This document shows, piece after piece, positions 4,614 through 59,526 of a stretch of 64,000 bases of DNA. This DNA comes from Candidatus Campbellbacteria bacterium RIFOXYC2_FULL_35_25 (GTDB lineage Bacteria; Patescibacteriota; Minisyncoccia; Phycocordibacterales; UBA12079). A model generated the notes under the pieces. That model saw nothing but the letters and a program-made list of their open reading frames with translations, was not told where the DNA came from and searched no databases. The stretch is taken from assembly GCA_001774495.1 (NCBI GenBank), contig MFAE01000005.1:26583-90582 (forward strand), read 5' to 3'. Positions within the stretch are counted from its first letter, which is position 1. Every line of letters begins with the position of its first letter. A program made the translations under genes and the position numbers.

Positions 4614-4880
4614 ATGAAAGTATTGCTGCCGCTAGACATCCCTTACGGGAGAACTTGCAAATTTGAAGGAGGAGAAGTTTGCCGACTATTCCTTTGGGGT
4701 CACGAAAATAGTCATTCTTCTTGCCGAGGGTGGAATGGAAGCCAAATTATTGAAAATTTTTTCAAACACCCAGCGTGTTTTGCCTTGCAAGAAAGAGAAA
4801 CGCATTGTTCCTCAGAACACCTGCATTTAGCAACAGGGTCCTGCCCTAGTTGCGATTATGGCAAACCACCCACTCCTTAA
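4614..4880 (+). CDS. hypothetical Cys/His-rich small protein, GC-rich islet
   Basis: 88-aa ORF, AGGGAG SD 8 nt before ATG, elevated GC, followed by GC-rich two-level hairpin element 4881-4930. Confidence 0.35.
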   Translation: MKVLLPLDIPYGRTCKFEGGEVCRLFLWGHENSHSSCRGWNGSQIIENFFKHPACFALQERETHCSSEHLHLATGSCPSCDYGKPPTP

Positions 4881-5000
4881 ATCCGCCCGACGAGAATTCC
4901 CGCTCTCGCTTGGCGGGTTTTCTCATTTTTGGTCAACCCAAAAAAAAAGAAACCCGCTTTGCGTAAACGCAAAGCGGGAGTTCTAGGTAATAAGGACGGC

Positions 5001-5716: not shown

Positions 5717-5906
5717 ATTTTTTAATTATTATAAGTAATACTCATATGCTATCATAAAAACATCTTTTTTTACTTTGAAATCAAAAAACTTGATTTTGAA
5801 TTTATGTTTGGTATCATCAATGGAATATTAACTCTATTTTAAAATAGTTGTTAAAAAGGAAATGCCTGTATAAAAATAGTGAATATTACAGTATAATATC
5901 CAAATT

Positions 5907-5928
5907 GGCCCTATCGTCTAACGGTTAT
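5907..5928 (+). pseudogene. tRNA-Glu 5' fragment (first ~21 nt) with duplicated promoter; part of 43-bp direct repeat
   Basis: attacagtataatatccaaattggccctatcgtctaacggtta occurs at 5886-5928 and again at 6074-6116 where it continues into the intact tRNA. Confidence 0.7.
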
Positions 5929-6094
5929 TGGAATAAAAAAACAAACTGCTTTGTTTTTTATCCAGTTCTGAGTGTAACGAAGAAATTTCCTTTATCGAAC
6001 GAAGTGAGATAGGAAATAGGGTAAGCCTTCGTTGAAGGCGATGTCTGCTTAAGACATATAAAAATAATCAAGATTACAGTATAATATCCAAATT

Positions 6095-6166
6095 GGCCCT
6101 ATCGTCTAACGGTTAGGACATCGCCTTCTCAAGGCGGAAATTCGGGTTCGATTCCCGGTAGGGTCA
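6095..6166 (+). tRNA. tRNA-Glu (anticodon CUC)
   Basis: GGCCCTA acceptor pairs with TAGGGTC (one G-U); Glu-type short D arm TCGTCTAACGGTTAGGACA; anticodon stem TCGCC/GGCGG, loop TTCTCAA (U33, A37); T-loop TTCGATT; close to E. coli tRNA-Glu. Confidence 0.85.
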
Positions 6167-7905: not shown

Positions 7906-8370
7906 TTACTCTATATTTATAATTTTATAATCTACTTGCCCTGCGGGTGCCTTAAATGAAAATGTTTCCCCTTTCTTCTTTCCAAGCATTGCGCTAACCA
8001 AAGGAGACTTGGTGGAAATCTTGTTCTGGGCACTATCGGACTCTTCTGCCCCAACAATCTTGTAAGTCACACAATCTTCATTTCCTCTTTTACAAATAGT
8101 AACCGAACGCCCAATACCAACAACGTCTTTGCTCCCTTCTGTAATAATTTCAGCAGTCTTCAAAACATTTTCTACTATCATAATTCGATGTTCCAACTCT
8201 GCCTGAGCTTCTCGTGCTTGATGATATTCTGCATTTTCTTTTAAATCACCCATAGAACTAGTTTGGCCGAGCTCGGCGGCGATTTCTTTTCTCTTTGTTC
8301 CTTTCAAGAATTTTAATTCCTCTTCCAGTTCTTTAAATTTTTCTTTTGTTATATATTCTTTCTGTTCCAT
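7906..8370 (-). CDS. greA: transcription elongation factor GreA
   Basis: 154 aa, N-terminal coiled coil with GDLKENAEY motif, C-terminal FKBP-like domain. Confidence 0.9.
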   Translation of the reverse strand: MEQKEYITKEKFKELEEELKFLKGTKRKEIAAELGQTSSMGDLKENAEYHQAREAQAELEHRIMIVENVLKTAEIITEGSKDVVGIGRSVTICKRGNEDCVTYKIVGAEESDSAQNKISTKSPLVSAMLGKKKGETFSFKAPAGQVDYKIINIE

Positions 8371-9247: not shown

Positions 9248-9345
9248 ACGTTTAATTATATATTAATTAGTAAGTGGGTGGTAGGAATAAATTAAAAAAG
9301 GTTTTAACTAAAAACTATCAACTATAAACTATAAACTAAACAAAT

Positions 9346-10201: not shown

Positions 10202-11428
10202 CTATTTATTTAGTATCTCAATAGCTTTTTCAAATTGAGGATCAAGACCTGCTTTAAAATCTTCTAGGGTGAATTCAACCTCTGTGTCAGGGGTTAACCC
10301 CTCTTTAGAAATTGAAACTCCATTTGGTGTTAGCCACCTTGCGATAGTTACTTTCAAAGAAGTTTCTGGGGTTATTTCAACTAACTCTTGGACCGAACCT
10401 TTCCCAAAAGTTTGTTCCCCGACAAGTGTGGCAATACCGTGCTCTTGCAAGGCTCCGGCTAATATTTCAGAAGCCGAGGCCGAACCGCCGTCAACCAGTA
10501 TAACAAACTTTAAGTCTTTGTTAAAGATATCGTAGCCTTTACTTCGATGTATTTTGTTTTCCTGGGTTCCTCCAAAATCTTCGATAACCACGGTCTTTCC
10601 TGCTGGCAAAAACCAACTAGCCATATCAACTGCCGCCTCCATATAACCACCGGGGTTTCCTCGAAGGTCTAAAATTAATTTATCTACCTTTCCAGACTGA
10701 TTTCCTTCTTTAAATTCTCTCAAAGCTTCTCTGAAAAGATCTGGGGAAGTAGCAGTAAAGCTATATAAATAAATAATAAAAACTTTCCCCTTTGACTCAG
10801 TCTTTATTGTGGGAATGTTTATGATATCTCTAACGACTGTTATTTCTAAGGGCTTATCTTCTTCATCTCTCATCAAAGAAAATTTAACTGGGGTTCCTTT
10901 TTCTCCTCTTATTAATTTTACGGCTTTATCTGTACTGAAATCGGAAGATAAAACGTCATCTATTTTTAATATTTTATCACCAGACTTGATTCCAGCTCTA
11001 TCAGCCGGGGTATCTTTCAAAGGAGCAATAACTGTTAAAATTCCATCCCTGATTCCTATCTCCATACCCACACCAGTAAAATTCCCAGCGATATCGCTCG
11101 CAAAAAGTTCATTCTCTTCTGGGGGTAAGAAAACTGTGTAAGGGTCACCAAAGGAACTGGCCAAGCCCTGTATAGCACCCCAGACTCTAGCTTGGTCATC
11201 TGTCCCATCAAAATCTACATATTTTTCATTTAAAAGGTTCCATGTTTTCCAAAAAGGCCCAAAATCAACCTTATTGCCTAAATCATCGGTTTTGTTAATT
11301 AAAGAATCAATTTTATTCTGACTAGCTTCACGACTTTGCCCAAAGCGAAAACCTACAAGAAACACGCCTGTAATTAGTGTAATAGCGAGGAGAGGGAAAA
11401 TTATTTTTTCAATTAATTTTTTTTGCAT
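10202..11428 (-). CDS. ctpA: carboxyl-terminal processing protease (S41 family) with PDZ domain
   Basis: 408 aa, N-terminal TM, PDZ (GIKSGDKILKIDD), S41 motifs LDLRGNPGG, TFGKGSVQ. Confidence 0.9.
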   Translation of the reverse strand: MQKKLIEKIIFPLLAITLITGVFLVGFRFGQSREASQNKIDSLINKTDDLGNKVDFGPFWKTWNLLNEKYVDFDGTDDQARVWGAIQGLASSFGDPYTVFLPPEENELFASDIAGNFTGVGMEIGIRDGILTVIAPLKDTPADRAGIKSGDKILKIDDVLSSDFSTDKAVKLIRGEKGTPVKFSLMRDEEDKPLEITVVRDIINIPTIKTESKGKVFIIYLYSFTATSPDLFREALREFKEGNQSGKVDKLILDLRGNPGGYMEAAVDMASWFLPAGKTVVIEDFGGTQENKIHRSKGYDIFNKDLKFVILVDGGSASASEILAGALQEHGIATLVGEQTFGKGSVQELVEITPETSLKVTIARWLTPNGVSISKEGLTPDTEVEFTLEDFKAGLDPQFEKAIEILNK

Positions 11429-25040: not shown

Positions 25041-25104
25041 CCCTCGACACAGCAAAAGAAAAAAGACGAATAAATTCGTCTTTTTTCTTTTGCTGTGTCG
25101 AGGG
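25041..25104. repeat. 64-bp perfect palindrome (30-bp arms, loop taaa) whose right arm continues into the partial tRNA-Phe 3' copy
   Basis: ccctcgacacagcaaaagaaaaaagacgaa taaa ttcgtcttttttcttttgctgtgtcgaggg. Confidence 0.85.
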
Positions 25105-25148
25105 GCGGGCTCGGACCGCCGACCCTTCGCTCTTCAGGCGAATGCTCT
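25095..25148 (-). pseudogene. partial tRNA-Phe copy (3' 54 nt: acceptor 3' strand, T arm, anticodon arm, D-stem 3' strand), att-like direct repeat of intact gene
   Basis: 54/54 identity with 25289-25342 then divergence. Confidence 0.8.
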
Positions 25149-25290
25149 CCCTCCTATTGCCTGCTCGCCCTTCGGGACTCGCTTCGGCAATTTTTTGCTT
25201 CGCAAAAACCAGATAAAAAGCTTAAACGCTTTTTATCCAACTGAGCAACGCTCAGTTGCTAGAGCATTAATAAATTTAGTTTATACAGTG

Positions 25291-25363
25291 TGTCGAGGGG
25301 CGGGCTCGGACCGCCGACCCTTCGCTCTTCAGGCGAATGCTCTACCAACTGAGCTACCTCGAC
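25291..25363 (-). tRNA. tRNA-Phe (anticodon GAA)
   Basis: GTCGAGG/CCTCGAC acceptor, D arm TAGCTCAGTTGGTAGAGC, anticodon stem TTCGC/GCGAA loop CTGAAGA, T stem GGCGG/CCGCC with unusual T-loop TCCGAGC. Confidence 0.85.
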
Positions 25364-26745: not shown

Positions 26746-26809
26746 ATAGATGAATTTTTAATTTCAAATTTCAATTCATTACTACAAACTACTCACTACT
26801 CACTACCAA

Positions 26810-27187
26810 CTAATCAAACCATCCTAAAAACTTGCTCCAAATTCCATCACCTTTACCATCATCTTCTTTTTGCTTGGTGTCTTTGGGATCAATTATCAAA
26901 ACCATTTTTTCTCCACTTTTTGCCACACCAAATTTGCTTCTTATCTCTCCCTCCTCTCCTTCTTTCGTTTTCAAAATTTCAATTTCAGACGATAGATTCT
27001 CTCCTCTTTCTTTTAACTCTTCTAATTCCCGTTGAGCAAGCTCTTTATTAATTCTTGTAATTTTTGATTCCCTGTAAGCGGTCCAAACTCCTTTTAAAAT
27101 AAAAAGGGTCACCAAGGCAAGCAAAAAAATAGTAACCTTTGAATAAATAATTCTTCTGACTACTTGTTTTTCTTCAAAATCAAACAT
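26810..27187 (-). CDS. FtsB/DivIC-like septum formation initiator
   Basis: 125 aa, N-terminal TM, coiled coil, IRSKFGVAKSGEKMVLI matching FtsB C-terminal motif. Confidence 0.6.
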   Translation of the reverse strand: MFDFEEKQVVRRIIYSKVTIFLLALVTLFILKGVWTAYRESKITRINKELAQRELEELKERGENLSSEIEILKTKEGEEGEIRSKFGVAKSGEKMVLIIDPKDTKQKEDDGKGDGIWSKFLGWFD

Positions 27188-28254: not shown

Positions 28255-28293
28255 TAAAAAGGTTTAGCAACAGTTGTTGCTAAACCTTTTTTT
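28255..28293. terminator. hairpin ggtttagcaacagttgttgctaaacc + T-run
   Basis: between convergent 27999..28223 and leuS. Confidence 0.7.
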
Positions 28294-28326
28294 ACTTACT
28301 ACTTGATACTTGCTACTTATTACTTA

Positions 28327-30777
28327 CTACTCATTACTCTCTACCACAATGTTTAAAATTCTATTTTTGACGTAAATGATCTTTTTGGGTTCTTTTCCTT
28401 CAAGCCATTTTTTTATCAATTCGCTTGCAAGAGCTTTCTTGCTAACATCCTCTTCCTCAGTTCCCTCTTCTATTTCTATAGTCTCTCTAACTTTTCCATT
28501 TACCTGAACGGCTATTTTGTGGATACTGTCTTTAGACAAGCTCTCATCAAATTTTGGCCAACTTTCATCTTGAATCAAACTTTCATTTCCCAACTGGTGC
28601 CAAAGCTCTTGTGTAATATGCGGAGCAAAAGGAGAAAGTATTGTTAAAAATGTTTGATAATCTTCTTTTGAGATACTTGATTTTTTTACTGTGTTTATAA
28701 ATTTCATCATATCAGAAACAGCAGTATTATAAGCCAACTCATCTATACCTTTCGTCATTCTTTTAATTGTCTTATGCAATTCCCTAACAACATCTTCAGA
28801 ACTTTTTTCTTTTAGTTCATCTTTGGTAAACCAAACTTTTTCCAAAAATCTATAAACTCCCACTATATTATCTTCATTCCACATTACCTCGTCTTCCAAT
28901 GGTGCAGCAAAAAGCATATAAGTCCTTACGGAATCAGCCCCAAAACTTTTAACCATATCATCTGGATTAACCACATTACCCTTTGATTTGCTCATTTTCT
29001 TGCCCTGCGCGTCCAAAACCATCCCTTGGTGCCTTAGCTTCAAAAACGGCTCATCAAAGTCTAGAAGGCCTATTTTGTTCATCGCTTTTGTGAAAAAACG
29101 AGCAAATAATAAGTGCATATAAGTATGTTCGGCCCCACCAATATACAAATCAACCGGCAACCATTTCTTACGAATTTCTGAACAAAACTCAGAATCATTT
29201 AGAGCATCTGGATATCTTAAAAAGTACCAAGAAGAATCAACAAAAGTGTCCATGGTGTCATATTCGGGAGTCCAACCTTTTCCAAAAATTTTTTCAGTTC
29301 TTTCTTTAAATTCTTTTGAAGCCCCTAATGGAGAAACTCCCTTTGGTTTAAAATCAACATCGATGGGAAGAATCCAAGGAAGATGCTCTTCAGGAACCAA
29401 GGTCGCCTTACCCTCGGGAGAATAAACGATCGGAATCGGACAACCCCAATATCTCTGTCGAGAAATTGACCAATCTCTTAAACGATAATTGGTTGTCATT
29501 TCCCCACCAACAAATTCTGTAATTTTCTTCTTAGCTTCTTCGGAGTTCATTCCATTGAATTGTCCTGATTCCATAAGTAACCCAAAACCTATCGTTGCAA
29601 AACCAGACTCACGAGCACTTTTTATTTTTAATTCTGCTAATCCTGGAATAATTTCGTCAACAGATTTAACCTCAGCTATAACTGGCTTAATTTCAATATC
29701 TTTTTGTAATGCAAACTGAAGGTCTCTATCATCATGAGCCGGCACCGCCATAATCGCACCAGTTCCATAGTTAACCAACACATAATCAGCAATGAAAACT
29801 GGTATTTCTTCGCTGTTAGCTGGATTAATAGCCGAAATTCCCTCAAGCTTCACCCCTGTCTTCTCTTTACCCTCTATTCTCTCCATTTCTGTCTTATTTT
29901 GAGCTTTAATCCCGTACTCCTCAACCTCGTCCCAGTTTGTAATTTGGTCCTTCAATTCGGAAACAAGCGAATGTTCTGGGGCAAGCACCATATAAGTAGC
30001 ACCAAACAAAGTGTCAGGACGAGTAGTAAATACCTCTATTTCGTTCGCTGTTAGCTGTGATCTGTGAGCTGTCAGCTTAAACTTAATCTTTGCTCCTTCA
30101 CTCTTCCCTATCCAATTTCTCTGATTTTTTTTAGTATGTTCTGGCCAATCAACTTTGTCTAAGTCATTAATTAAATCATCGGCGAAATCTGTAATCTTGA
30201 AAAACCACCCTGGTATTTTTTTCTGTTCAATTTGGGTTCCGCATCTTTCACACTCACCATTAAGAACTTGTTCGTTCGCAATTACAGTCTGGCAAGAAGA
30301 ACACCAATTTGCTTTTTGTGTACTTTGATAAACTAAATCATTTTTATAAAATTGTTGAAAAATCCATTGAGTCCATTTGTAGTATTTTGGATCAGAGGTT
30401 ACTGCCTGTTCATCAAAATCATAATTAAGACCCAACATCTTCATTTGTTTAATATAATTGCTGATATTTTTTTCAGTAGTTTGGGCGGGGTGAACTCCTG
30501 TTTTTATTGCAAAGTTTTCAGCCGGCAAACCAAAGGCGTCAAACCCTTGAGGGTGCAAAACATTAAATCCCTGCATCTTTTTGAAACGGTAATATACATC
30601 ACTCGCGGTATAACTTTCAGTATGTCCCATATGAAGACCATCACCGGACGGATAAGGAAACATATCAAGCATGTAAAACTTATTTTTAGTATCGTCTTTG
30701 TCTATTTTAGAAACCTTATTTTCCTCCCAAATCTTTTGCCATTTCCCCTCAATATCATTGTGATTGTATTTTTCCAT
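28327..30777 (-). CDS. leuS: leucyl-tRNA synthetase
   Basis: 816 aa, HMGH and KMSKS motifs, editing (CP1) domain. Confidence 0.95.
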   Translation of the reverse strand: MEKYNHNDIEGKWQKIWEENKVSKIDKDDTKNKFYMLDMFPYPSGDGLHMGHTESYTASDVYYRFKKMQGFNVLHPQGFDAFGLPAENFAIKTGVHPAQTTEKNISNYIKQMKMLGLNYDFDEQAVTSDPKYYKWTQWIFQQFYKNDLVYQSTQKANWCSSCQTVIANEQVLNGECERCGTQIEQKKIPGWFFKITDFADDLINDLDKVDWPEHTKKNQRNWIGKSEGAKIKFKLTAHRSQLTANEIEVFTTRPDTLFGATYMVLAPEHSLVSELKDQITNWDEVEEYGIKAQNKTEMERIEGKEKTGVKLEGISAINPANSEEIPVFIADYVLVNYGTGAIMAVPAHDDRDLQFALQKDIEIKPVIAEVKSVDEIIPGLAELKIKSARESGFATIGFGLLMESGQFNGMNSEEAKKKITEFVGGEMTTNYRLRDWSISRQRYWGCPIPIVYSPEGKATLVPEEHLPWILPIDVDFKPKGVSPLGASKEFKERTEKIFGKGWTPEYDTMDTFVDSSWYFLRYPDALNDSEFCSEIRKKWLPVDLYIGGAEHTYMHLLFARFFTKAMNKIGLLDFDEPFLKLRHQGMVLDAQGKKMSKSKGNVVNPDDMVKSFGADSVRTYMLFAAPLEDEVMWNEDNIVGVYRFLEKVWFTKDELKEKSSEDVVRELHKTIKRMTKGIDELAYNTAVSDMMKFINTVKKSSISKEDYQTFLTILSPFAPHITQELWHQLGNESLIQDESWPKFDESLSKDSIHKIAVQVNGKVRETIEIEEGTEEEDVSKKALASELIKKWLEGKEPKKIIYVKNRILNIVVESNE

Positions 30778-32249: not shown

Positions 32250-32343
32250 ATTATTTATATTATTGAGATTAATAAAAATTCTAATAATAAACTAGAAATT
32301 GAATAGAGAATCATGAATTAAGAATTCTGAATCATGATTCTTT

Positions 32344-32410
32344 ATTCGTGATTCGTGATTCGTGATTCGTGATTCGTGATTCGTGATTCGTGATTCGTGA
32401 TTCGTGATTC
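32344..32410. repeat. heptanucleotide tandem repeat (ATTCGTG) x 9.5, perfect
   Basis: attcgtg units 32344-32406 plus attc; intergenic between SPFH stop (32432) and start of 31695..32249. Confidence 0.95.
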
Positions 32411-33438: not shown

Positions 33439-33485
33439 AACCATGGTGATCTATCCTAACCAATTTAAATATTTTACGAGAAAAA

Positions 33486-33953
33486 AGCCCGTCCCGGAAA
33501 CCGGGGCGGGCTACAAAACAACAAAAAGATAGCTCGGGATCGCTGGGTGGCGGTTTGAAAATTTCATTGACCGTCGCCTTCAGGGCGGTTTTTTACGTCG
33601 CAGGCGTCTCTTTTTGGTGTTTTTCTATTTGGAAACCTCCCCATATAAACAGAGAAGCTCCACCCATAAGAGCAAAACAAATATAGAAAAAAAGCAGGGC
33701 AAAATGATGAAAGAAAAAATCATTTAACCAATTTCGATAAAAATCATTTAACAGAAGAATATTAAGATCTGAAAAAAACAATACTGATACCATCAAGAAA
33801 AAACCAATGGCCACAGAGCAATAAGCAATAGACTTCATAGCACTCCTCCTTTCTTTTTTATACTTTTTTATGAAAGACAAAAAATTCTAACCATAGACTA
33901 ACAACATAGACGAGGGTTGTCAATCATTTTGGCTTCTTTTACAATTATTTAGA
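33486..33953. repeat. 468-bp direct repeat, copy A (apparently 100% identical to 34461-34928); contains gene 33593..33880 and GC hairpin AGCCCGTCCCGGAAACCGGGGCGGGCT
   Basis: base-by-base comparison of the two stretches; identical 95-aa translations. Confidence 0.9.
33593..33880 (-). CDS. hypothetical small membrane protein (2-3 TM), copy A
   Basis: 95 aa; identical to 34568..34855. Confidence 0.5.
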   Translation of the reverse strand: MSFIKKYKKERRSAMKSIAYCSVAIGFFLMVSVLFFSDLNILLLNDFYRNWLNDFFFHHFALLFFYICFALMGGASLFIWGGFQIEKHQKETPAT

Positions 33954-34085
33954 AATTAAGAATTTAAAATTAATTTGATTTTAAAATTGGATGCGGAACG
34001 AAGGTTTGAGGTAGTTATTTGGAAAAAGAAAAAGCCCGTCCCGGATAACCGGAACGGGCTGCAAAACAACATTTGGTGTTTTTGT

Positions 34086-34292: not shown

Positions 34293-34460
34293 TCTTACCT
34301 CCTTATAATGGCTCTGGTTTTTTGTACCGGGTTAAATAATCTATCGTTAGATTAACAGATCAGATTATATTGTCAACAAAAAATTAATTTGATTTTAAAA
34401 TTGGATGCAGAACGAGGAGTTGAGGTAGTTTTTAGTTGATAGTTTTTAGGAAAAAGAAAA

Positions 34461-34928
34461 AGCCCGTCCCGGAAACCGGGGCGGGCTACAAAACAACAAA
34501 AAGATAGCTCGGGATCGCTGGGTGGCGGTTTGAAAATTTCATTGACCGTCGCCTTCAGGGCGGTTTTTTACGTCGCAGGCGTCTCTTTTTGGTGTTTTTC
34601 TATTTGGAAACCTCCCCATATAAACAGAGAAGCTCCACCCATAAGAGCAAAACAAATATAGAAAAAAAGCAGGGCAAAATGATGAAAGAAAAAATCATTT
34701 AACCAATTTCGATAAAAATCATTTAACAGAAGAATATTAAGATCTGAAAAAAACAATACTGATACCATCAAGAAAAAACCAATGGCCACAGAGCAATAAG
34801 CAATAGACTTCATAGCACTCCTCCTTTCTTTTTTATACTTTTTTATGAAAGACAAAAAATTCTAACCATAGACTAACAACATAGACGAGGGTTGTCAATC
34901 ATTTTGGCTTCTTTTACAATTATTTAGG
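34461..34928. repeat. 468-bp direct repeat, copy B
   Basis: identical to 33486-33953. Confidence 0.9.
34568..34855 (-). CDS. hypothetical small membrane protein, copy B (identical to 33593..33880)
   Basis: 95 aa identical protein. Confidence 0.5.
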   Translation of the reverse strand: MSFIKKYKKERRSAMKSIAYCSVAIGFFLMVSVLFFSDLNILLLNDFYRNWLNDFFFHHFALLFFYICFALMGGASLFIWGGFQIEKHQKETPAT

Positions 34929-36388: not shown

Positions 36389-36607
36389 AAGGTTATTAAG
36401 AGATTAATGATTAATTTGTAAATTAGTAAAAAAGGGGAGGTAAAATTTTTAATTTATAATTTTTAATTTATAAACAATTTTTAATGATAAAATTTTTAAA
36501 ATTTAAAAGTTGGGATTATGATACCTTGCAATGGAAATCGCAAAGCCAATTCCCCTCCTTAACCTCGTTATAATAGCCTTTTTTAAGCGAAAACTCAATA
36601 AATAAGA

Positions 36608-36648
36608 AAACCCGTCCAACAAGAAACAGGTTTTCTTGTTGGACGGGT
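36608..36648. terminator. hairpin cccgtccaacaagaaa acag gttttcttgttggacggg
   Basis: downstream of 36655..37086. Confidence 0.7.
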
Positions 36649-36654
36649 TGTTCG

Positions 36655-37086
36655 CTACTGGGCGAGCTCACAGAAAGTTTGCTTGTCAAAAGTTTTCCAA
36701 GTTCCTCCACGCAAAATTGTTAGAGTGGGGTTATTATCCCAGTCCCTAATTTTTTCAAAAGCATAAAAAATTTGTCTTTGAGTAATCCACCCAATAACTC
36801 GGTGGTCTTTGCGACTGAAGGCTTTTGAGGTCCCTCTTCTCCTGATCAAAACGAAATCCTGAAACCCCAGTGCGAAATCAAAGAGACAAAAGGTTTTTCC
36901 GAGTTCGTCTTCCCAGATGACGACATTTCCGTTCTCGGTAAAATAATACTGCCCTATTGTTCTTACATTTTTAGTCCTGCAAAGCTGTAAATCCTCTTCA
37001 GAGAAATTACCATCCTTCACGGGACTTCCGATTATAGGGAAACCTAGTCGTCTCTCACCTTTGAACCTTTGCATGGCTGTATTCAT
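36655..37086 (-). CDS. hypothetical protein, GC-rich islet (start at Met15 of ORF-track model after AAGGAG)
   Basis: 143 aa; elevated GC; flanked by GC hairpins 36608-36648 and 37227-37255. Confidence 0.45.
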   Translation of the reverse strand: MNTAMQRFKGERRLGFPIIGSPVKDGNFSEEDLQLCRTKNVRTIGQYYFTENGNVVIWEDELGKTFCLFDFALGFQDFVLIRRRGTSKAFSRKDHRVIGWITQRQIFYAFEKIRDWDNNPTLTILRGGTWKTFDKQTFCELAQ

Positions 37087-37226
37087 TGGTTTACTCCTTC
37101 TTTGGGTTATTACAGAGAACCGATACAAATCTTTTTCTAGATTACCTCAAAAGAAAAGCTTTTTCAAGCTTTATGTGTTCCGTCCCTACATTCTGTTAGG
37201 CAAGGCCTACTAGATTAATAAAAAGA

Positions 37227-37262
37227 AAACCGCCCAGATAAGAAACGGGCGGTTTCTTTTTT
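37227..37262. terminator. hairpin aaaccgccc agataagaaac gggcggttt + T-run
   Basis: between 36655..37086 and 37401..37841. Confidence 0.7.
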
Positions 37263-37400
37263 GGACGATTGTTGTTTACCACGGAATCCACGGAGGGATT
37301 GATGCGAATTCATGCCCCATGGCAGCCATTGTGATAACGATGGTCATCATATACGGATAAAGTGCGTTATACAAATTTGTCATGGTTCTCCACCTCTTTT

Positions 37401-37841
37401 TTAATGATTGCCGCAATTTGGGCATTTACCATCGGCGGATTGCATATGTTCGATAGAACCGTGAACTTCGCAATCAGGATTCTTGGTGGGCTGGTCTGCT
37501 GAAGTCCAGAATCCGTTTTCAGGATTAAAGCTTGCAACGAAACATTCCACTTTCGCTTTCGGATAAAGTCTTTTGATTCCCAAACCAACATTCAGTGCAA
37601 GCCGTTGCCGAACTCCTTGTGTTCTTTCTGGTTTTTCGAAGAGACCACTAATTTCGATGATGATTTCTTCACCCAGACCATAAGACATAAGGTCAGGAAC
37701 AAACAAGCAGGTCATGTCGTTTTCATCCTTCAAACCAAGTTCGTAAATACCAACAACAGCGGATACAATCGATTGATGAACCTTGTTCAGCATCTCCTCT
37801 GTCTGATTAGCAGGAAGACACCATACTTTGATTATGGGCAT
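37401..37841 (-). CDS. hypothetical protein: N-terminus MPIIKV... reminiscent of tautomerase-superfamily Pro1 start, C-terminal zinc ribbon (C..H..CPNCGNH); GC-rich islet
   Basis: 146 aa ORF, elevated GC. Confidence 0.4.
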   Translation of the reverse strand: MPIIKVWCLPANQTEEMLNKVHQSIVSAVVGIYELGLKDENDMTCLFVPDLMSYGLGEEIIIEISGLFEKPERTQGVRQRLALNVGLGIKRLYPKAKVECFVASFNPENGFWTSADQPTKNPDCEVHGSIEHMQSADGKCPNCGNH

Positions 37842-38004
37842 TAGAATATCTCCTTTAGGTGGTTTTTATACCGTGTATTGAAAATGACTCACTTTTTTCT
37901 AACAAAAATATACATCAAACTGGCTTGTTTGTAAATAGGTTTATAAAAAATGAGCTGTGAGTTGTAAGCTGTCGGCTGTTAGCTTCTCTTAGCTATCCCC
38001 TCAT

Positions 38005-38565: not shown

Positions 38566-38695
38566 ATAATATCACAGTTATTTCTATCTTTTTTCTCCCT
38601 TTGTTCTTTTTATTGACAGGGTATAGGTAATAAAGTATATTTTTAACAGAAATGTAAACCTTATCATACATTTAGAAACATAAAGGGGGGCTAAG

Positions 38696-39202
38696 ATGGT
38701 GGAAAATAAGATATACCCAAAAGATGTTGAAGCCGTTTTTTTCAAAGCTGCGGAACGGGGTTGGGCAGTTACTGGAACAGCAACAGAAACTTCCACCCTA
38801 CTTCCAGGGTACAAACTTATCCGTTTTAAATCAGGAAAATTTTCTGTTTTAGACGCCTACTGCGTCAACCCAGCAAGCGACAAGTCAGCAGGATTCACCA
38901 CCATTTGGTGCGACGACGTTCCGGTATGGACGATGCATTACAGCGGGAGGTATCAGAAACGATTGATCCCACTCCTTAAACTAGCCTTACAAGCAAACAT
39001 CATCAGCCGTACCTTTGTGGGAGGACGTGGTCCGACGACTTTTACCGATGAAGAACGGTACCCAGACCTTGTCTATATCAACAATGTTGTAAGGGGAAGG
39101 AGAACCTTCTCCAGTTTTGCAGGAAGAGAAATTATTGTTGACGTGGGAAACCTCAACCTCCCATTGGGGTATCACGACTACCGGGGAATAAGTCTCCTCT
39201 AA
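38696..39202 (+). CDS. hypothetical protein, GC-rich islet
   Basis: 168 aa; TTGACA-17-TAAAGT-like promoter and AAAGGGGGG SD upstream; followed by two-level GC hairpin element. Confidence 0.5.
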   Translation: MVENKIYPKDVEAVFFKAAERGWAVTGTATETSTLLPGYKLIRFKSGKFSVLDAYCVNPASDKSAGFTTIWCDDVPVWTMHYSGRYQKRLIPLLKLALQANIISRTFVGGRGPTTFTDEERYPDLVYINNVVRGRRTFSSFAGREIIVDVGNLNLPLGYHDYRGISLL

Positions 39203-39250
39203 ACCCGCCCAACGAGAAAACCCGCCATTCTCGTATGGCGGGTTTTCTTT
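39197..39250 (+). terminator. two-level GC hairpin element aaacccgcccaacgagaaaacccgccattctcgtatggcgggttttct; homologous to 4881-4930
   Basis: outer stem cccgcc/ggcggg, inner stem acgagaa/ttctcgt; same architecture and ~70% identity to element after 4614..4880. Confidence 0.6.
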
Positions 39251-39393
39251 ATTTTAATACTCTAGAGTCTAACTCTGCAAGTCATTAAAAAGTTATTTAT
39301 TAGCTATAATATTTTCTTGACCCCTAATTTAAACTGGTGTAGTATCAACAATAGATTGTACCCTGAGACTAAATTTATTTTAGGAGGAAAGAC

Positions 39394-40004: not shown

Positions 40005-40252
40005 AGGTTTAGTCGTTAGTTATTAGTTTATAGTTTTTAGAAAATTTTTAAAAACAAAAACTTATTTGCAATTAATTTATAATTAATAAAATAATAACAC
40101 AGGAGGATAGAAAATAAAAATAAAAAACACTTCTAGTTTTTTTCATACTTAAATTTATATAGGCATGAAAAAAACCGCCGAAGCGATTTCTTTCATAGTA
40201 CCTATTAAGTAGCAAGCTAAATAATAAGTACTTTAATTAGTATACTAAAGTG

Positions 40253-40342
40253 AGAAAAAAAAGCAAGCTTCTTGTTGATAACTCAAATTTAATTTACAGA
40301 GTCTTAGTCTCTGTAAATTAAATTTGAGTTATCAACAAGAAG
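40253..40342 (-). terminator. exceptionally long perfect hairpin (34-bp arms, 7-nt loop) followed on minus strand by U9: probable murJ terminator
   Basis: cttcttgttgataactcaaatttaatttacagag tcttagt ctctgtaaattaaatttgagttatcaacaagaag; A-run 40253-40262 on plus. Confidence 0.65.
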
Positions 40343-40456
40343 TAATAAGTAGTAAGTAGTGAGTATTAAGTTTCTGGATTGCTTCAGGCTTCGCCTTCGC
40401 AAAGACAAAAATCGTTTGCTATAAGCTATCGGCTATTAGCTATTAGCTTTCTAATA

Positions 40457-45726: not shown

Positions 45727-45845
45727 AGAAAATTTTTACGAAAATTTTAGTATTAAGTAATAAGTAGTAAGTATTAAGTATAAATGAAAAAGTTAAAAGT
45801 TGAAAGTTTATAATTTCTAGCGAGGACGAAAGGGAGGTATAGTCC

Positions 45846-46289: not shown

Positions 46290-46594
46290 GGTTCTGAATT
46301 GCTTCGAAATTACTCCCCGAGGCCTCACCTCTCCCGTCGTTTCGCTTCGCTCCACTTCTCCTCGAGGACTTAAAATTTTTTAGGAAAAGTTTTAAGCAAC
46401 GACGGGCCTCCGTCCGTAATTTCTCGCAAAGACGACGAAAGGCAGAGCCTTTCGTCGTCTTTTAAAAATTAATTTATTAAAAATTTTTAAACCCCCACCC
46501 CTTTCTTTTCCAAAACAAAGGTGTGGGGGTTTAAAAATTAAAAATTAAAAATTTCAGATGTTTTTTCTACTCACTACTCACTACCAACTACTCA

Positions 46595-47527
46595 CTATTC
46601 CTGTGCAACTTTTTCTATACTAGCAGAAACTAATTTTCCCACGTCTTTGAAACGGCCTTCTCGGGAAGAACCTAAAACAGAAACAATGATAGGATGACCT
46701 ATGCCAATATCAAAAGCGATAACTAAATTTCCTCCAGCCAAATCTGTAAAGCCGGTTTTAGAAGCAATTATTCCGGGGATGGCTTCCGCGTATTGATTGG
46801 TATTGTAAACAGTATGAGTAAAATCTTTTGATTTTATTTCCAAACTCGAATATTTTGTAGCCTCAAGAATCTGCGGTTTCTCTTTTATGATCTGCCCCAT
46901 TAGCATAGCCACATCTTTTGCCGAACCATAGGCCCCACCAACATCCTGACTTACATCTAACCCAGATTCGTTTAAAAAATAAGTTTGGATTAATCCTAAA
47001 TTTTGAGCTTTTTGGTTCATTTCTTTAATAAACATTTCTTCCTGTGTTTGTCCCTCTCCTGTATTAATAGAACCTATGATAGAGGCAAGGGCGTGCGCTC
47101 CATCATTAGATGAAGATACTAAAGTAAAGTCCAAAACATCAGCGAGTCTCCATTTTTCACCCATCAAGAAACCACTATCCCCTTCTTCGTTGATGTCCTG
47201 ACTGTCTATGGTAACAATGATTCCTTCTGGAACTAATTCTGAAACAACTAGTGCTGTCATTAACTTTGTTAAAGATGCCAAAGGTAACTGAGCTTCCCCA
47301 TTCATTGAATAAATTATTTTATTTTCGTAAGTGTCCCAAACGAAAGCTGATTTTGCTTCCAAAACCAAGTCTTCAAATGGATCTATTTTTTCTTCCGCAA
47401 TATTGACCTCTGATTCAATTATTATTTCTTCTTTTTTACTTAAAAAATAAAAAAGAAAAACGCCCACCAAAACGACAGTGGTTGTTATTAGAACAATAAT
47501 TTTATTTTTATTTTTTGCGAAATTCAC
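46595..47527 (-). CDS. D-alanyl-D-alanine carboxypeptidase (S11, PBP5-like)
   Basis: 310 aa, SLTK, SSN, KTGFT motifs, N-terminal TM. Confidence 0.8.
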   Translation of the reverse strand: MNFAKNKNKIIVLITTTVVLVGVFLFYFLSKKEEIIIESEVNIAEEKIDPFEDLVLEAKSAFVWDTYENKIIYSMNGEAQLPLASLTKLMTALVVSELVPEGIIVTIDSQDINEEGDSGFLMGEKWRLADVLDFTLVSSSNDGAHALASIIGSINTGEGQTQEEMFIKEMNQKAQNLGLIQTYFLNESGLDVSQDVGGAYGSAKDVAMLMGQIIKEKPQILEATKYSSLEIKSKDFTHTVYNTNQYAEAIPGIIASKTGFTDLAGGNLVIAFDIGIGHPIIVSVLGSSREGRFKDVGKLVSASIEKVAQE

Positions 47528-48967: not shown

Positions 48968-49027
48968 GTGAATAAGTATAAAGTAGTAAGTATCAAGTAT
49001 CAAGTTTGAAACTTTTAATTAGTATTT

Positions 49028-52858: not shown

Positions 52859-52943
52859 AATTTGGTTTTTAGTTGTTAGTTATTAGTATTCTTCAGAATT
52901 TTTTTAGCTGTAAGCTGTCGGCTGTGAGCTGTAAGCTTTTCTA

Positions 52944-57462: not shown

Positions 57463-59526
57463 ATGAAAAATATAAAAATTATGAAAAATAAACATTCAGG
57501 CAAAAAACACGACTCGAAAGATTTTAACCATAACAAAAATAAGCATTCCAACACCTCTAGAAATACTAGGGGTGGAGAAACTATGGAAGGGGTTATTTTT
57601 GTAACAATGAGAGGAAACGGCTTTGTTAAGGTTGTTAATTTAAAAGATGACGTTGAAATATCAGAATTTAATCTTAATACCGCTCTCAATAAAGATATTG
57701 TAAAAATTTCTCTGGAACCAAAAAGAGGCAATCGAGCTGAAGGAAGAGTAGAAGAAATTATCGAAAGAGCTAAAACCGAATTTGTTGGAACTATCACAAA
57801 AAAAGAAGGGGCTATGTTTTTTACTCCAGATGATAAAAAAGTTTATAGAGAAATAGTGATAATCCCTAACAGAAAGTCAGAACAAGCTAAAACAAATCAG
57901 AAAGTACTTATAAAAATGGAACCTTGGACAAATCCTAAGGCTAACCCTAAAGGTGAAATTGTTAAAGTGCTCGGGGACAAGGGGGACAATAATGTTGAGA
58001 TGGAATCCATTGTTTATGAAAAAGGTTTCAGCCCTCACTTCCCTAAAAGTATAGAGGACGAGGCCCACAGAATAAAAGAAAGTGCCCCTGCTGATTTCGA
58101 AGAGGAAGTTAAAAAAAGACTTTCTGCCCCAGATGGACCACCTTCAAGTTGGGATTTTAGAAATACCACAACTTTTACCATTGACCCTTTTGACGCTAAA
58201 GATTTCGACGATGCTCTTTCCTTTAAAGAATTGCCTGACGGAAACTATGAAGTTGGTATCCATATTGCTGATGTAACTCATTATGTAAAAGAAGGAAGTA
58301 TTATTGATAAAGAAGCCGTAAAAAGAGGAACTTCTATTTATTTAGTTGACCGAACAATTCCAATGCTACCAGAAGTTTTGTCTAACGACCTTTGTTCGCT
58401 GAACCCTCATACAGATAAACTGGCTTATTCCGCTATTTTTAAAATAAATGACAAATGCGAAGTCTTGGATCGATGGTTTGGAGAAACAATAATAAATTCT
58501 AACCGAAGATTCAGCTATCTAGAAGCCCAGGAAGTTTTAGATAAACATGAGGGAGAGTTCCACAAGGAATTATTTACATTGAATGAACTGGCTTTAATCA
58601 AAAGAAAAAGAAGAACAAAAAACGGAGCAATAACTTTTGGAAGTATAGAAGTAAAATTTAAATTAGATGAAAAAGGTTTCCCTATTGAAGTTTATGAAAA
58701 AGAACTATTGGAAACCAATGAGTTAATTGAAGATTTTATGCTTTTGGCAAACAGAGAAGTTTCTGAATACATAGACCGTCTAAACAAAAAGACTGGGGTG
58801 ATTAATCCTTTTGTTTACAGAATCCACGATGTCCCTAAACAAGAAAAAATTATTGAACTACAATCTTATTTAAGAAATATTGGTTATGAATTAAACACGG
58901 ATAAAGACGGCAATGTGACAGCAAAAGATATAAATAAATTATTAAACATAATTCAAGGAATAGACGAGCAGGACCTTATTGAAAAAGCTATTTTGAAATC
59001 AATGGCAAAAGCTATCTACTCAACAACCAACATTGGACATTTCGGTTTGGCTTTTGAACATTACACTCATTTCACCTCCCCTATCCGAAGATATCCTGAC
59101 ATGATGGTACACCGTCTAATGAAAAAGTATCTAAAAGACGAAAGAATTTCTGCTCAAGAAAAAAGAACTTACGACAGACTTTGTGCTAGTTCCTCAAGAC
59201 AAGAAATTGTTGCCGTGGAAGCAGAAAGGGACTCACAAAAATACAAATACACAGAATATATGTCACAACGAATTGGGGAAGAATTTGAAGGAATAATCAC
59301 GAGCGTTGTAGAATGGGGAGTTTACGTACAGGACTCTGTAACTAAGACGGAAGGTCTAGTGAGTGTCAGAAGCCTAAAAGACGACCATTATAACATTGAC
59401 CCAAAAAACTATCGAATCAAAGGAGAAAAAACCGGGAGGACTCTCACCCTTGGTGACAAGGTTAAAGTTAAATTGACCGGAACCGATCTAGACAAGAGGA
59501 CGATAGACTTTGAGATAATAGGGTAA
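57463..59526 (+). CDS. rnr: ribonuclease R (RNB-family 3'-5' exoribonuclease) with basic His/Lys-rich N-terminus and C-terminal S1 domain
   Basis: RNB catalytic motifs (DPFDAKDFDDALS, LVDRTIPMLP), S1 domain at C-terminus. Confidence 0.9.
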   Translation: MKNIKIMKNKHSGKKHDSKDFNHNKNKHSNTSRNTRGGETMEGVIFVTMRGNGFVKVVNLKDDVEISEFNLNTALNKDIVKISLEPKRGNRAEGRVEEIIERAKTEFVGTITKKEGAMFFTPDDKKVYREIVIIPNRKSEQAKTNQKVLIKMEPWTNPKANPKGEIVKVLGDKGDNNVEMESIVYEKGFSPHFPKSIEDEAHRIKESAPADFEEEVKKRLSAPDGPPSSWDFRNTTTFTIDPFDAKDFDDALSFKELPDGNYEVGIHIADVTHYVKEGSIIDKEAVKRGTSIYLVDRTIPMLPEVLSNDLCSLNPHTDKLAYSAIFKINDKCEVLDRWFGETIINSNRRFSYLEAQEVLDKHEGEFHKELFTLNELALIKRKRRTKNGAITFGSIEVKFKLDEKGFPIEVYEKELLETNELIEDFMLLANREVSEYIDRLNKKTGVINPFVYRIHDVPKQEKIIELQSYLRNIGYELNTDKDGNVTAKDINKLLNIIQGIDEQDLIEKAILKSMAKAIYSTTNIGHFGLAFEHYTHFTSPIRRYPDMMVHRLMKKYLKDERISAQEKRTYDRLCASSSRQEIVAVEAERDSQKYKYTEYMSQRIGEEFEGIITSVVEWGVYVQDSVTKTEGLVSVRSLKDDHYNIDPKNYRIKGEKTGRTLTLGDKVKVKLTGTDLDKRTIDFEIIG

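What the first reader, a model, noticed from the sequence alone, without database searches (positions are those of the whole stretch)
39197..39250. Two homologous two-level GC hairpin elements at the 3' ends of unrelated acquired genes
The two elements align at ~70% identity and share the same nested stem architecture. They are aaatccgcccgacgagaattcccgctctcgcttggcgggttttct (4881-4925, after 4614..4880) and aaacccgcccaacgagaaaacccgccattctcgtatggcgggttttct (39201-39247, after 38696..39202). Each has an outer ccgcc/ggcgg stem and an inner cgaga/tctcg stem. The similarity is sequence homology rather than merely similar terminators. The genes they follow are unrelated. The element may be a conserved 3' boundary of a family of mobile cassettes, or a structured RNA motif.
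Basis: seen in the sequence. Interest (0 to 1): 0.5.

Follow-up and report, generated by a model that had tools for sequence, protein, structure and literature searches.

The report
Family of three-arm transcription terminator hairpins
The two look-alike GC hairpins are real and belong to a small family of related transcription terminators in a groundwater Campbellbacteria (CPR) genome; each carries a spare copy of its 5' arm, a curious variant of an ordinary signal and not a mobile-cassette boundary.

Summary
Both elements are where stated, are 79% identical, and follow unrelated genes. The window holds four such elements, not two: A 4879-4930(+), B 39201-39255(+), C 36649-36601(-), D 37269-37221(-). 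Each starts 0-7 nt after a stop codon and ends in a TTTTCTT run, so all are intrinsic terminators. They are a distinct sequence cluster among about 45 strong terminator-like hairpins in the window. In leave-one-out profile searches each member is recovered at E 5e-4 to 2e-10, and the best other site scores E 0.012. The apical loop holds a second copy (P2) of the outer 5' arm (P1). The 3' arm can therefore pair with either copy, giving two exclusive folds, both directly upstream of the U-tract. Both folds are kept by compensatory changes across eight sequences, which include terminators of DUF5680 orthologues in three other CPR genomes and a relative with 85% DNA identity. No evidence supports mobility, attC sites or a riboswitch-like switch. 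The B gene is syntenic in a related genome, so it is not a recent acquisition. Verdict: a lineage-specific family of terminators, a new variant of a known kind, of modest interest.

The parts
39201..39255 (+). Element B, the finding. P1 AAACCCGCC 39201-39209 overlaps stop codon TAA 39200-39202. Spacer CAA. Y CGAGAA 39213-39218. P2 AACCCGCC 39219-39226, in the apical loop. Y' TTCTCG 39228-39233. Spacer TAT. Pbar GGCGGGTTT 39237-39245. T-tract TTTTCTTTATTTT 39243-39255.
   Evidence: Sequence. Folds: fold I -23.6 kcal/mol, fold II -25.2 kcal/mol. Called terminator-like. Covariance model score 80.3 bits (B is one of the four training sequences).
4879..4930 (+). Element A. P1 AAATCCGCC 4879-4887 overlaps stop codon TAA 4878-4880. 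Y CGAGAA 4891-4896. P2 core CCCGC 4899-4903. Y' TCTCG 4904-4908. Pbar GGCGGGTTT 4912-4920. Tail TCTCATTTTT.
   Evidence: Sequence. Folds: fold I -19.1 kcal/mol, fold II -17.9 kcal/mol. Called terminator-like. Recovered in leave-one-out search at E 2.6e-7.
36601..36649 (-). It is a perfect 18-bp hairpin, AACCCGTCCAACAAGAAA / TTTCTTGTTGGACGGGTT, with loop ACCTG and tail TTCTTATT. It starts 5 nt after stop codon TAG 36657-36655.
   Evidence: Found by the A+B profile at E 2.6e-6. Sequence. Fold I -29.2 kcal/mol and fold II -16.0 kcal/mol. Both folds are called terminator-like.
37221..37269 (-). Element D, a fourth copy. P1 ATCGTCCA 37269-37262. Y AAGAAAC. P2 CCGCCC 37252-37247. Y' GTTTCTT. Pbar TGGGCGGT 37236-37229. 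Tail TTTTCTTTTT. It starts 6 nt after stop codon TAA 37278-37276 of a 35-aa ORF.
   Evidence: Sequence. Covariance model score 72 bits (D is one of the four training sequences). Leave-one-out recovery at E 4.9e-4. Fold I -17.1 kcal/mol and fold II -19.8 kcal/mol.
38696..39202 (+). B gene: 168 aa, DUF5680 family. GC 0.464 and GC3 0.456.
   Evidence: Pfam PF18931. Homologues P0002-P0012 in other CPR bacteria. Synteny with L031. Composition.
38613..38641 (+). Promoter-like site upstream of the B gene: TTGACA-17-TATATT, 11 of 12 consensus positions matched.
   Evidence: This is a consensus match only, not evidence of function.
4614..4880 (+). A gene: 88 aa, Cys/His-rich, found only in this lineage. 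It is a real gene under purifying selection.
   Evidence: The only homologue found is a 97% identical variant. Against L040 there are 10 synonymous and 3 non-synonymous codon differences. No family hit.
36655..37128 (-). C gene: 143-157 aa depending on the start codon, with no homologue found outside this lineage.
   Evidence: GC 0.414.
37276..37841 (-). D transcription unit: a 146-aa gene at 37401-37841 plus a 35-aa ORF at 37276-37383. The 146-aa protein belongs to a widespread family with no Pfam model.
   Evidence: 685 representative clusters match at E<=1e-3. Promoter-like site at 37935..37907.

Best explanation
A, B, C and D are Rho-independent (intrinsic) transcription terminators of four separate small transcription units in a Candidatus Campbellbacteria genome. 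They are related by descent, having spread by copying within this lineage, and are not independently evolved. All share a three-arm design: P1 (AAACCCGCC, at or just after the stop codon), spacer, Y (CGAGAA), P2 (a second AACCCGCC in the apical loop), Y' (TTCTCG), spacer, Pbar (GGCGGGTTT), then TTTTCTT. Alternatively Pbar plus the U-tract can pair with Y+P2; this is fold II, a single 11-15 bp helix. In both folds a GC helix ends directly at the U-tract, so both terminate transcription. Shown here: the anatomy, the position and orientation at gene ends, the family status, and conservation of both helices by compensatory change. Inferred: that transcription stops there. Also inferred is the role of the spare arm P2. 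A ribosome sitting on the stop codon would cover P1, which lies 0-7 nt after the stop codon in 7 of 8 copies, and P2 would keep termination efficient in that case. After release, fold II would tuck the 3' U-tract into a helix and protect the transcript from 3' exonucleases; an RNase R-type gene is in the window.
For: Hairpin plus T-run on the coding strand at all four sites. All 8 known copies lie downstream of a gene with the T-tract distal to it. Family status: the A+B profile finds C at E 2.6e-6. Leave-one-out recovery is at E 2.6e-7, 2.3e-10, 1.2e-7 and 4.9e-4, against 0.012 or worse for any other site. Fold I: 89.5% of cells paired, 7 pairs changed on both sides, slid controls 41-49%. P1:Pbar alone: 91.7% paired. 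Fold II: 94.6-96.3% paired, 4 pairs changed on both sides, slid controls 49-67%. Energies: fold I -17 to -32 kcal/mol, fold II -13 to -25 kcal/mol. The spare arm is specific to the family. Among the ~46 strongest hairpin+T-run sites (<= -15 kcal/mol) in the window and the comparable sites (<= -14 kcal/mol) in the low-GC related loci, only family members re-pair the 3' arm cleanly when the 5' arm is blocked. In the relative L040 (85% DNA identity), Pbar changed GGCGGG to GACGGG and P2 changed CCCGC to CCCGT, which compensates in fold II. Window copies are closer to B (66-79%) than B's own orthologues are (53-64%), which points to within-lineage copying. In E. coli, a terminator a few bp after a stop codon is almost fully repressed by the ribosome (PMC4824070). 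An RNB-domain exonuclease gene is at 57463-59526.
Against: There are no transcript 3'-end data. Only 8 sequences are known, from 4 loci in one genome plus orthologues. The structural alignments were hand-built with N as gaps and so are fitted to the folds. The covariance model built from A-D scores the orthologous copies at 28-29 bits, no better than unrelated long terminators at 31-39 bits. Their membership therefore rests on position and the three-arm design, not on sequence score. Mirrored changes could come from template-switch correction of palindromes rather than from selection. Whether transcription and translation are coupled in CPR bacteria is unknown. The L035 copy starts 24 nt after the stop codon, so ribosome masking cannot explain P2 there.
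Confidence: 0.7

Rival explanations
1. The similarity is convergent. The four are independent terminators shaped by the same local rules (GC clamp, flanking A- and T-tracts, TTTTCTT tail), with no common descent.
For: TTTT(T)CTTTT tails and CCCGC-type stem bases recur in other terminators of the window. Unrelated sequences share the outer stem: L023 from a marine metagenome scores 38.6 bits, and phage hits cover only the simple P2/Pbar hairpin. The orthologous copies score no better than generic terminators with the covariance model.
Against: Identity extends through spacers, inner stem and loop, where a terminator imposes no sequence rule. The A-D pairs are outliers against 2,415 terminator pairs in the same genome region. 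Leave-one-out E-values reach 2e-10. The three-arm design is absent from the other terminators examined.
Confidence: 0.15
2. The element is a mobile or recombination feature: an attC-like site marking the 3' end of gene cassettes, or a REP/MITE-like dispersed palindrome that also happens to terminate transcription.
For: The C and D units are adjacent, in the same orientation, each ending in the element, and both are absent between YchF and DUF5680 in the related locus L031. The preceding genes are GC-rich and partly lineage-specific. Element C matches RYYYAAC...GTTRRRY (read).
Against: The attC core sites are not conserved: only C matches both, B matches one, and the other six match none (sequences). 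The hairpins are 41-50 nt, against the 57-141 bp of attC sites (known range, from my own knowledge of the literature). No integrase or transposase domain was found in the 40 window proteins (about 50 ORFs look like genes) scanned. The B and D units have promoter-like sites. All copies have the same orientation relative to the gene. No target-site duplication is visible. The B copy is vertically retained after DUF5680 in four genomes. Pattern scans of GTDB representatives, JGI metagenomes and IMG/VR found only chance hits.
Confidence: 0.06
3. The two exclusive folds form a regulatory switch, either an attenuator or riboswitch-like element controlling read-through into the downstream gene, or a 3'-UTR-derived small RNA.
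For: Two mutually exclusive helices are both conserved by covariation. In B, a same-strand gene follows 190 nt downstream.
Against: Both folds keep Pbar paired directly upstream of the U-tract, so neither acts as an antiterminator. In L031 the element lies between convergent genes with nothing downstream to regulate. The gene downstream of B has its own promoter-like site. No Rfam family matches, and the sub-threshold hits are to the terminator stems of sRNA and leader models.
Confidence: 0.06

Closest known systems
Canonical Rho-independent (intrinsic) terminators, including bidirectional ones with an A-tract upstream and a U-tract downstream
   Same: A GC-rich hairpin directly followed by a U-rich tract at the 3' end of a transcription unit. 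An upstream A-rich segment (AGAAAA) is complementary to the U-tract (UUUUCU). The stems are maintained by compensatory changes.
   Different: These carry a duplicated 5' arm (P1 and P2), which gives two exclusive terminator folds. They also form a sequence-similar family shared by unrelated genes, and the design is conserved across genomes whose upstream proteins are only 43-53% identical. I found no paper on CPR terminators in one library search, and I know of no described three-arm terminator class.
REP/BIME and other dispersed palindromic repeats (ERIC, Correia, RPE), and paired DNA-uptake sequences that double as terminators
   Same: Short, sequence-similar palindromes found after genes in several places in one genome. 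They can terminate transcription and stabilise the upstream mRNA.
   Different: Only four copies are seen in 64 kb, three of them within 2.7 kb. All have the same orientation relative to the gene. There is no conserved GTAG-type head, no RAYT or transposase is seen, and one copy is vertically inherited with its gene.
Integron attC sites
   Same: An imperfect palindrome at the 3' end of small genes of unknown function. Two such units lie in tandem.
   Different: The elements are too short, the R''/R' core sites are not conserved, no integrase or attI is seen, the genes have promoter-like sites, and a U-tract follows every copy.
Transcription attenuators with alternative hairpins (trp-type 1:2/2:3/3:4 logic)
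   Same: One segment (Pbar) can pair with either of two upstream segments.
   Different: Both alternatives are terminators, there is no antiterminator state, and the element lies after a gene rather than in a leader.

Membership tests
Rho-independent (intrinsic) terminator | A stable GC-rich hairpin followed within 0-2 nt by a U/T-rich tract | tested here: met
   The fold energies are -17 to -32 kcal/mol, and every copy has a TTTTCT(T/C) tail. All four window copies are called by the terminator scan.
Rho-independent (intrinsic) terminator | Lies at the 3' end of a transcription unit, on the transcribed strand | tested here: met
   All 8 copies start from -2 to +24 nt relative to a stop codon, with the T-tract distal to the gene.
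Rho-independent (intrinsic) terminator | The hairpin is conserved as structure, by compensatory substitutions | tested here: met
   Fold I has 89.5% of cells paired and 7 pairs changed on both sides. Fold II has 94.6% paired and 4 such pairs. The alignment was hand-fitted and holds only 7-8 sequences.
Rho-independent (intrinsic) terminator | RNA polymerase releases the transcript in the U-tract | not testable with these tools
   This needs Term-seq, 3' RACE or in vitro transcription.
Integron attC site | Conserved core sites R'' (RYYYAAC) and R' (GTTRRRY) at the two ends | tested here: not met
   I read this from the sequences. C has GTCCAAC...GTTGGAC. B has GCCCAAC but GTATGGC. A, D, L031, L035, L038 and L040 have neither.
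Integron attC site | Length of about 57-141 bp with L''/L' boxes and extrahelical bases | tested here: not met
   The hairpins span 41-50 nt, and C is a perfect 18-bp helix with no extrahelical base.
Integron attC site | Linked integron integrase and attI, or an array of promoterless cassettes | tested here: not met
   No recombinase domain was found in the 40 window proteins (about 50 ORFs look like genes) scanned; not every small ORF was scanned. Promoter-like sites precede the B and D units.
REP/BIME/MITE-like dispersed repeat | Many copies spread over the genome | not testable with these tools
   Only 64 kb of this genome was available: four copies, three of them within 2.7 kb. The GTDB, JGI and IMG/VR pattern scans did not contain this lineage and returned only chance hits.
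REP/BIME/MITE-like dispersed repeat | Inserted in either orientation; terminal inverted repeats with target-site duplication (MITE) or a GTAG head with a RAYT (REP) | tested here: not met
   All copies are oriented with the gene. No duplicated flank is visible. No Y1-transposase domain was found in the scanned proteins.
Attenuator or riboswitch expression platform | An alternative fold that prevents the terminator hairpin from forming | tested here: not met
   Both folds pair Pbar directly upstream of the U-tract.
Attenuator or riboswitch expression platform | Lies in the 5' leader of the regulated gene, and matches a known aptamer or leader family | tested here: not met
   The L031 copy lies between convergent genes. 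Rfam gives nothing at gathering score and only sub-threshold matches to terminator stems at E<=5.

The most novel reading that the evidence does not exclude
The three-arm layout is a selected, 'ribosome-proof' terminator module. P1 overlaps or abuts the stop codon and is masked by the terminating ribosome. The spare arm P2, about 19-24 nt further on, then completes the terminator. After release, fold II seals the 3' end against exonucleases. The module is copied onto newly gained small genes in Campbellbacteria. This would make it a portable gene-end part, and a natural solution to the known repression of terminators that lie too close to a stop codon.
Probability: 0.2. Interest if true: 0.5.

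Novelty: new variant of a known kind. Interest (0 to 1): 0.3.

Why it matters
If the spare-arm idea holds, it shows how very compact genomes can place a terminator directly on the stop codon without losing it to ribosome interference. It would also give synthetic biology a short terminator that is insensitive to translation. The finding also shows that terminators in CPR genomes can occur as sequence families copied between unrelated genes; the related locus L031 has its own, different family. That matters for terminator prediction and for reading gene gain in these little-studied bacteria. If the idea does not hold, these are ordinary terminators and nothing more follows.

Tried and rejected
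(1) I ran loose-pattern scans (AAACCCGNC..CNAGA..TCTNG..GGNCGG). GTDB representatives gave 4 hits, JGI metagenomes 16 and IMG/VR 0. All hits were chance matches in high-GC DNA or generic terminators, and the source lineage is not in those collections. The copy number elsewhere in this genome therefore could not be measured.

(2) Rfam at gathering score, and at E<=5 on 36.5-39.4 kb, gave no family.

(3) All 10 contigs that carry the B gene are the same strain, at >=99.4% identity over every long aligned segment and with identical element sequences, and give no variation.

(4) Homologue searches for the A and C proteins returned only near-identical copies. PHROGs, NCBIfam and PADLOC gave nothing for the A, B, C or D proteins.

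(5) Two look-ups (P0004, P0005) returned no DNA. Three DUF5680 orthologues (L034, L037, L039) carry a different downstream element, and one (L036) overlaps the next gene.

(6) BLAST of B against phage genomes gave only partial hits to the simple hairpin half, at E 0.01-0.5.

(7) The attC reading was rejected on the core sites and on length. The attenuator reading was rejected because both folds are terminators.

(8) The covariance model R1 does not separate the orthologous copies from generic long terminators, so I did not use it to define membership outside the window.

Full report
**Observation**

They align at 79% mean column identity, flanks included. A pattern joining both arms (CCGCC..GGCGGGTTTT) matches only these two sites in the window, against none in 100 shuffles. 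For B, that fold is a close suboptimal at -23.6 kcal/mol. B's best fold, at -25.2 kcal/mol, is a different hairpin that uses a second CCCGCC lying in the loop. The upstream proteins, of 88 and 168 aa, are unrelated.

**More copies in the window**

A profile built from A+B found a third copy, C, on the minus strand at 36649-36601 (E 2.6e-6). It also found a weaker fourth, D, at 37269-37221. C is a perfect 18-bp hairpin. It differs from A and B by mirrored changes: CCGCC/GGCGG becomes CCGTC/GGACG, and CGAGA/TCTCG becomes CAAGA/TCTTG.

Each of the four copies begins 0-7 nt after a stop codon:
- A and B overlap a TAA stop codon.
- C starts 5 nt after a TAG stop codon.
- D starts 6 nt after the TAA of a 35-aa ORF that follows a 146-aa gene.

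Each copy ends in TTTTCT(T/C) on the transcribed strand. The simple terminator scan calls all four.

**Is this more than terminators looking alike?**

I listed 70 hairpin+T-run sites in the window, about 45 of them convincing, and compared all pairs. After one obvious tandem duplicate (33.5/34.5 kb), the top pairs are A-B 35, B-C 30, C-D 25, A-C 22 and B-D 21. The 99th percentile of the 2,415 pairs is 16, and the highest remaining score is 20.

In leave-one-out profile searches of the window, the omitted member is recovered at these E-values:
- A: 2.6e-7
- B: 2.3e-10
- C: 1.2e-7
- D: 4.9e-4

The best site outside the family reaches only E 0.012. So the four are a real sequence family. The other terminators of this genome are long A/T-flanked hairpins with unrelated stems.

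**Anatomy**

In order, the parts are:
- P1: AAACCCGCC
- a spacer
- Y: CGAGAA
- P2: a second (A)ACCCGCC, in the apical loop
- Y': TTCTCG
- a spacer
- Pbar: GGCGGGTTT
- the tail TTTTCTT

This layout allows two mutually exclusive folds:
- Fold I pairs P1 with Pbar and Y with Y'. This is the two-level hairpin.
- Fold II pairs Y+P2 with Pbar plus the first bases of the U-tract, forming one helix of 11-15 bp.

Fold I ranges from -17 to -32 kcal/mol and fold II from -13 to -25 kcal/mol. Fold II is the minimum-free-energy fold in B and D. In both folds a GC helix ends directly at the U-tract.

As a control, I blocked the outer 5' arm of every strong hairpin+T-run site and refolded. In the window, only family members re-pair the 3' arm into a clean helix: C 9/9 bases and A 7/9. 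(B and D enter that list already in fold II.) In the low-GC related loci, only the family copies do so.

**Source and context**

The B protein is identical to a protein of Candidatus Campbellbacteria bacterium RIFOXYC2_FULL_35_25. The contigs that carry it include several from Rifle aquifer metagenomes, and all are essentially the same strain.

The window is core chromosome. It encodes DnaE, GreA, L9, CysRS, DnaB, RecR, LeuRS, LysRS, YchF, MurJ, MraY-like, FtsI, MraW/MraZ, LepA, ScpA/B and an RNase R-type RNB protein. No recombinase or transposase domain was found in the 40 window proteins (about 50 ORFs look like genes) scanned.

The genes ahead of the four elements are GC-rich (GC 0.41-0.46, GC3 0.36-0.50), whereas core genes show about 0.34-0.37 and 0.28. 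They are otherwise a mixed set:
- A88 and C157 have no homologue outside this lineage. A88 is still a real gene: against a relative it shows 10 synonymous and 3 non-synonymous codon changes.
- D146 belongs to a widespread family with no Pfam model, with 685 representative clusters.
- B168 is a DUF5680 protein with homologues in other CPR bacteria.

Promoter-like sites precede the B and D units.

**Outside the window**

A related MAG locus, L031, has its 75-aa neighbour protein 81% identical to the window's. In L031 the DUF5680 gene sits in the same LeuRS-YchF-DUF5680-75aa neighbourhood, so the B gene is not a recent arrival.

Directly at the stop codon of that gene lies TAATCCCGCTCAATAGGAAACCGTTCCTATCTGAGCGGTTTTCTT. 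It has the same layout with different stems. Two more DUF5680 orthologues, L035 (53% identical) and L038 (43% identical), also carry three-arm elements. In these, P1, P2 and Pbar have changed together: CCCACC / CCCA / GGTGGG in L035, and CCTGT / CTCG / ACGGG in L038. Three other orthologues carry a different downstream element, and one overlaps the next gene.

L040 is a relative of the A region with 85% DNA identity. There, Pbar changed from GGCGGG to GACGGG and P2 from CCCGC to CCCGT. This preserves fold II, while P1 keeps a C opposite the new A.

**Covariation**

I counted pairs on a hand-built alignment with N in place of gaps, so it is fitted to the folds.

| Helix | Cells paired | Pairs changed on both sides | Slid controls (cells paired) |
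|---|---|---|---|
| Fold I | 89.5% | 7 | 41-49% |
| P1:Pbar alone | 91.7% | 3 | 33-56% |
| Fold II | 94.6-96.3% | 4 | 49-67% |

Both helices are therefore maintained. The sample is small: eight sequences, four of them from one genome.

**Descent or convergence**

Over the element, the window copies are closer to B (A 79%, C 77%, D 66%) than B's own orthologues are (53-64%). This points to copying or concerted change within the lineage.

The covariance model built from A-D scores the orthologous copies at 28-29 bits. Unrelated long terminators score 31-39 bits. Membership of the orthologous copies therefore rests on position and design, not on sequence score.

L031 has its own separate trio of look-alike terminators (AAATCAGCTATCCTATAGC...) after core genes. 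Families of terminators may be a habit of these genomes.

**Mechanism**

Most likely these are intrinsic terminators.

The spare arm has a plausible role. In E. coli, a terminator placed a few base pairs after a stop codon is almost completely repressed by the ribosome (PMC4824070). Here P1 lies under the footprint of a terminating ribosome in 7 of 8 copies. The P2 core lies about 19-24 nt past the stop codon and would stay free. Fold II also buries the 3' U-tract in a helix, which should hinder 3' exonucleases such as the RNB enzyme encoded in the window. These steps are inference and nothing here tests them. The L035 copy, which starts 24 nt after the stop codon, does not fit the ribosome argument.

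**Rivals**

- Convergence is unlikely, given the identity in spacers and loop and the outlier statistics.
- An attC-like or REP/MITE-like element is unlikely. The core sites are not conserved, the hairpins are too short, all copies have one orientation, no recombinase is seen, the genes have promoter-like sites, and the element is vertically retained after DUF5680.
- An attenuator or riboswitch is unlikely. Both folds are terminators, the L031 copy lies between convergent genes, and Rfam gives nothing.

**Verdict**

The finding is a lineage-specific family of terminators with a duplicated 5' arm, which is a new variant of a known kind. It is of modest interest unless the spare-arm function is shown.

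**Limits**

The rest of this genome could not be reached. The genome-wide copy number therefore remains unknown.

Noticed in passing
window, many intergenic sites, e.g. 32324-32410, 9306-9338, 26781-26812, 28293-28339, 30047-30077, 37945-37985, 40008-40040, 40340-40371, 40418-40448, 45749-45781, 46567-46597, 48974-49005, 52906-52937: There are roughly 30 short tandem arrays, each with a 7-nt period (3-12 copies). The unit differs from array to array (ATTCGTG, AACTATA, ACTACTA, GCTGTGA, AAGTAGT, GCTATTA and others). Those I checked lie in intergenic DNA; for example, 37945-37985 sits between the end of YgjP and the promoter-like site of the D146 gene. I know of no described function.
   Followed up: no
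L034:10521-10620, L037:3130-3229, L039:1322-1423: A conserved ~100-nt non-coding block lies directly after DUF5680 orthologues in three other CPR genomes. It has a closing stem, CTGTNACATGTGAG/CTCACGTGACAG, that shows compensatory changes. Rfam gives no match at gathering score (L034, L037, L039) or at E<=1 (L037, L039). The block is absent from the window and from L031. It is possibly an undescribed small RNA.
   Followed up: partly
L031:3098-3153(-), 7966-8023(-), 11185-11242(+): The related genome has its own, different family of three long perfect-hairpin terminators (AAATCAGCTATCCTATAGC...GCTATAGGATAGCTGATTT) with mirrored differences. Two of them follow core genes, sigma-70 and YchF.
   Followed up: partly
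window 33482-33781 and 34457-34756: A 300-nt stretch is repeated at 100% identity 975 bp apart. It is part of a local duplication carrying 95-aa ORFs and GCCCGTCCCGGAAACCGGGGCGGGC terminators, with a third diverged copy near 34027.
   Followed up: no
window 25095-25169 and 25290-25363; 5869-5927 and 6057-6115: ARAGORN finds two tRNA-Phe(GAA) genes 195 bp apart, but only one reaches the Rfam gathering score. The promoter region plus the first ~20 nt of tRNA-Glu is duplicated 188 bp upstream of the intact gene.
   Followed up: partly
window 37401-37841 (-): The 146-aa protein starts MPIIKVW, which is tautomerase-like. It has no Pfam, NCBIfam, PHROG or PADLOC hit, yet it matches 685 representative clusters (306 at E<=1e-10) over a ~115-aa N-terminal domain. 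This is a widespread family with no model in any of the four libraries searched (Pfam, NCBIfam, PHROGs, PADLOC). Its C-terminal CxxH..CPxC motif is shared with the 88-aa A protein.
   Followed up: partly
window 38696-39202 vs L031:10001-10489: The DUF5680 proteins of the two genomes are only 49% identical, while the neighbouring 75-aa protein is 81% identical. DUF5680 is therefore either evolving fast or was replaced in place. It is GC3-rich relative to its neighbours in several genomes.
   Followed up: partly
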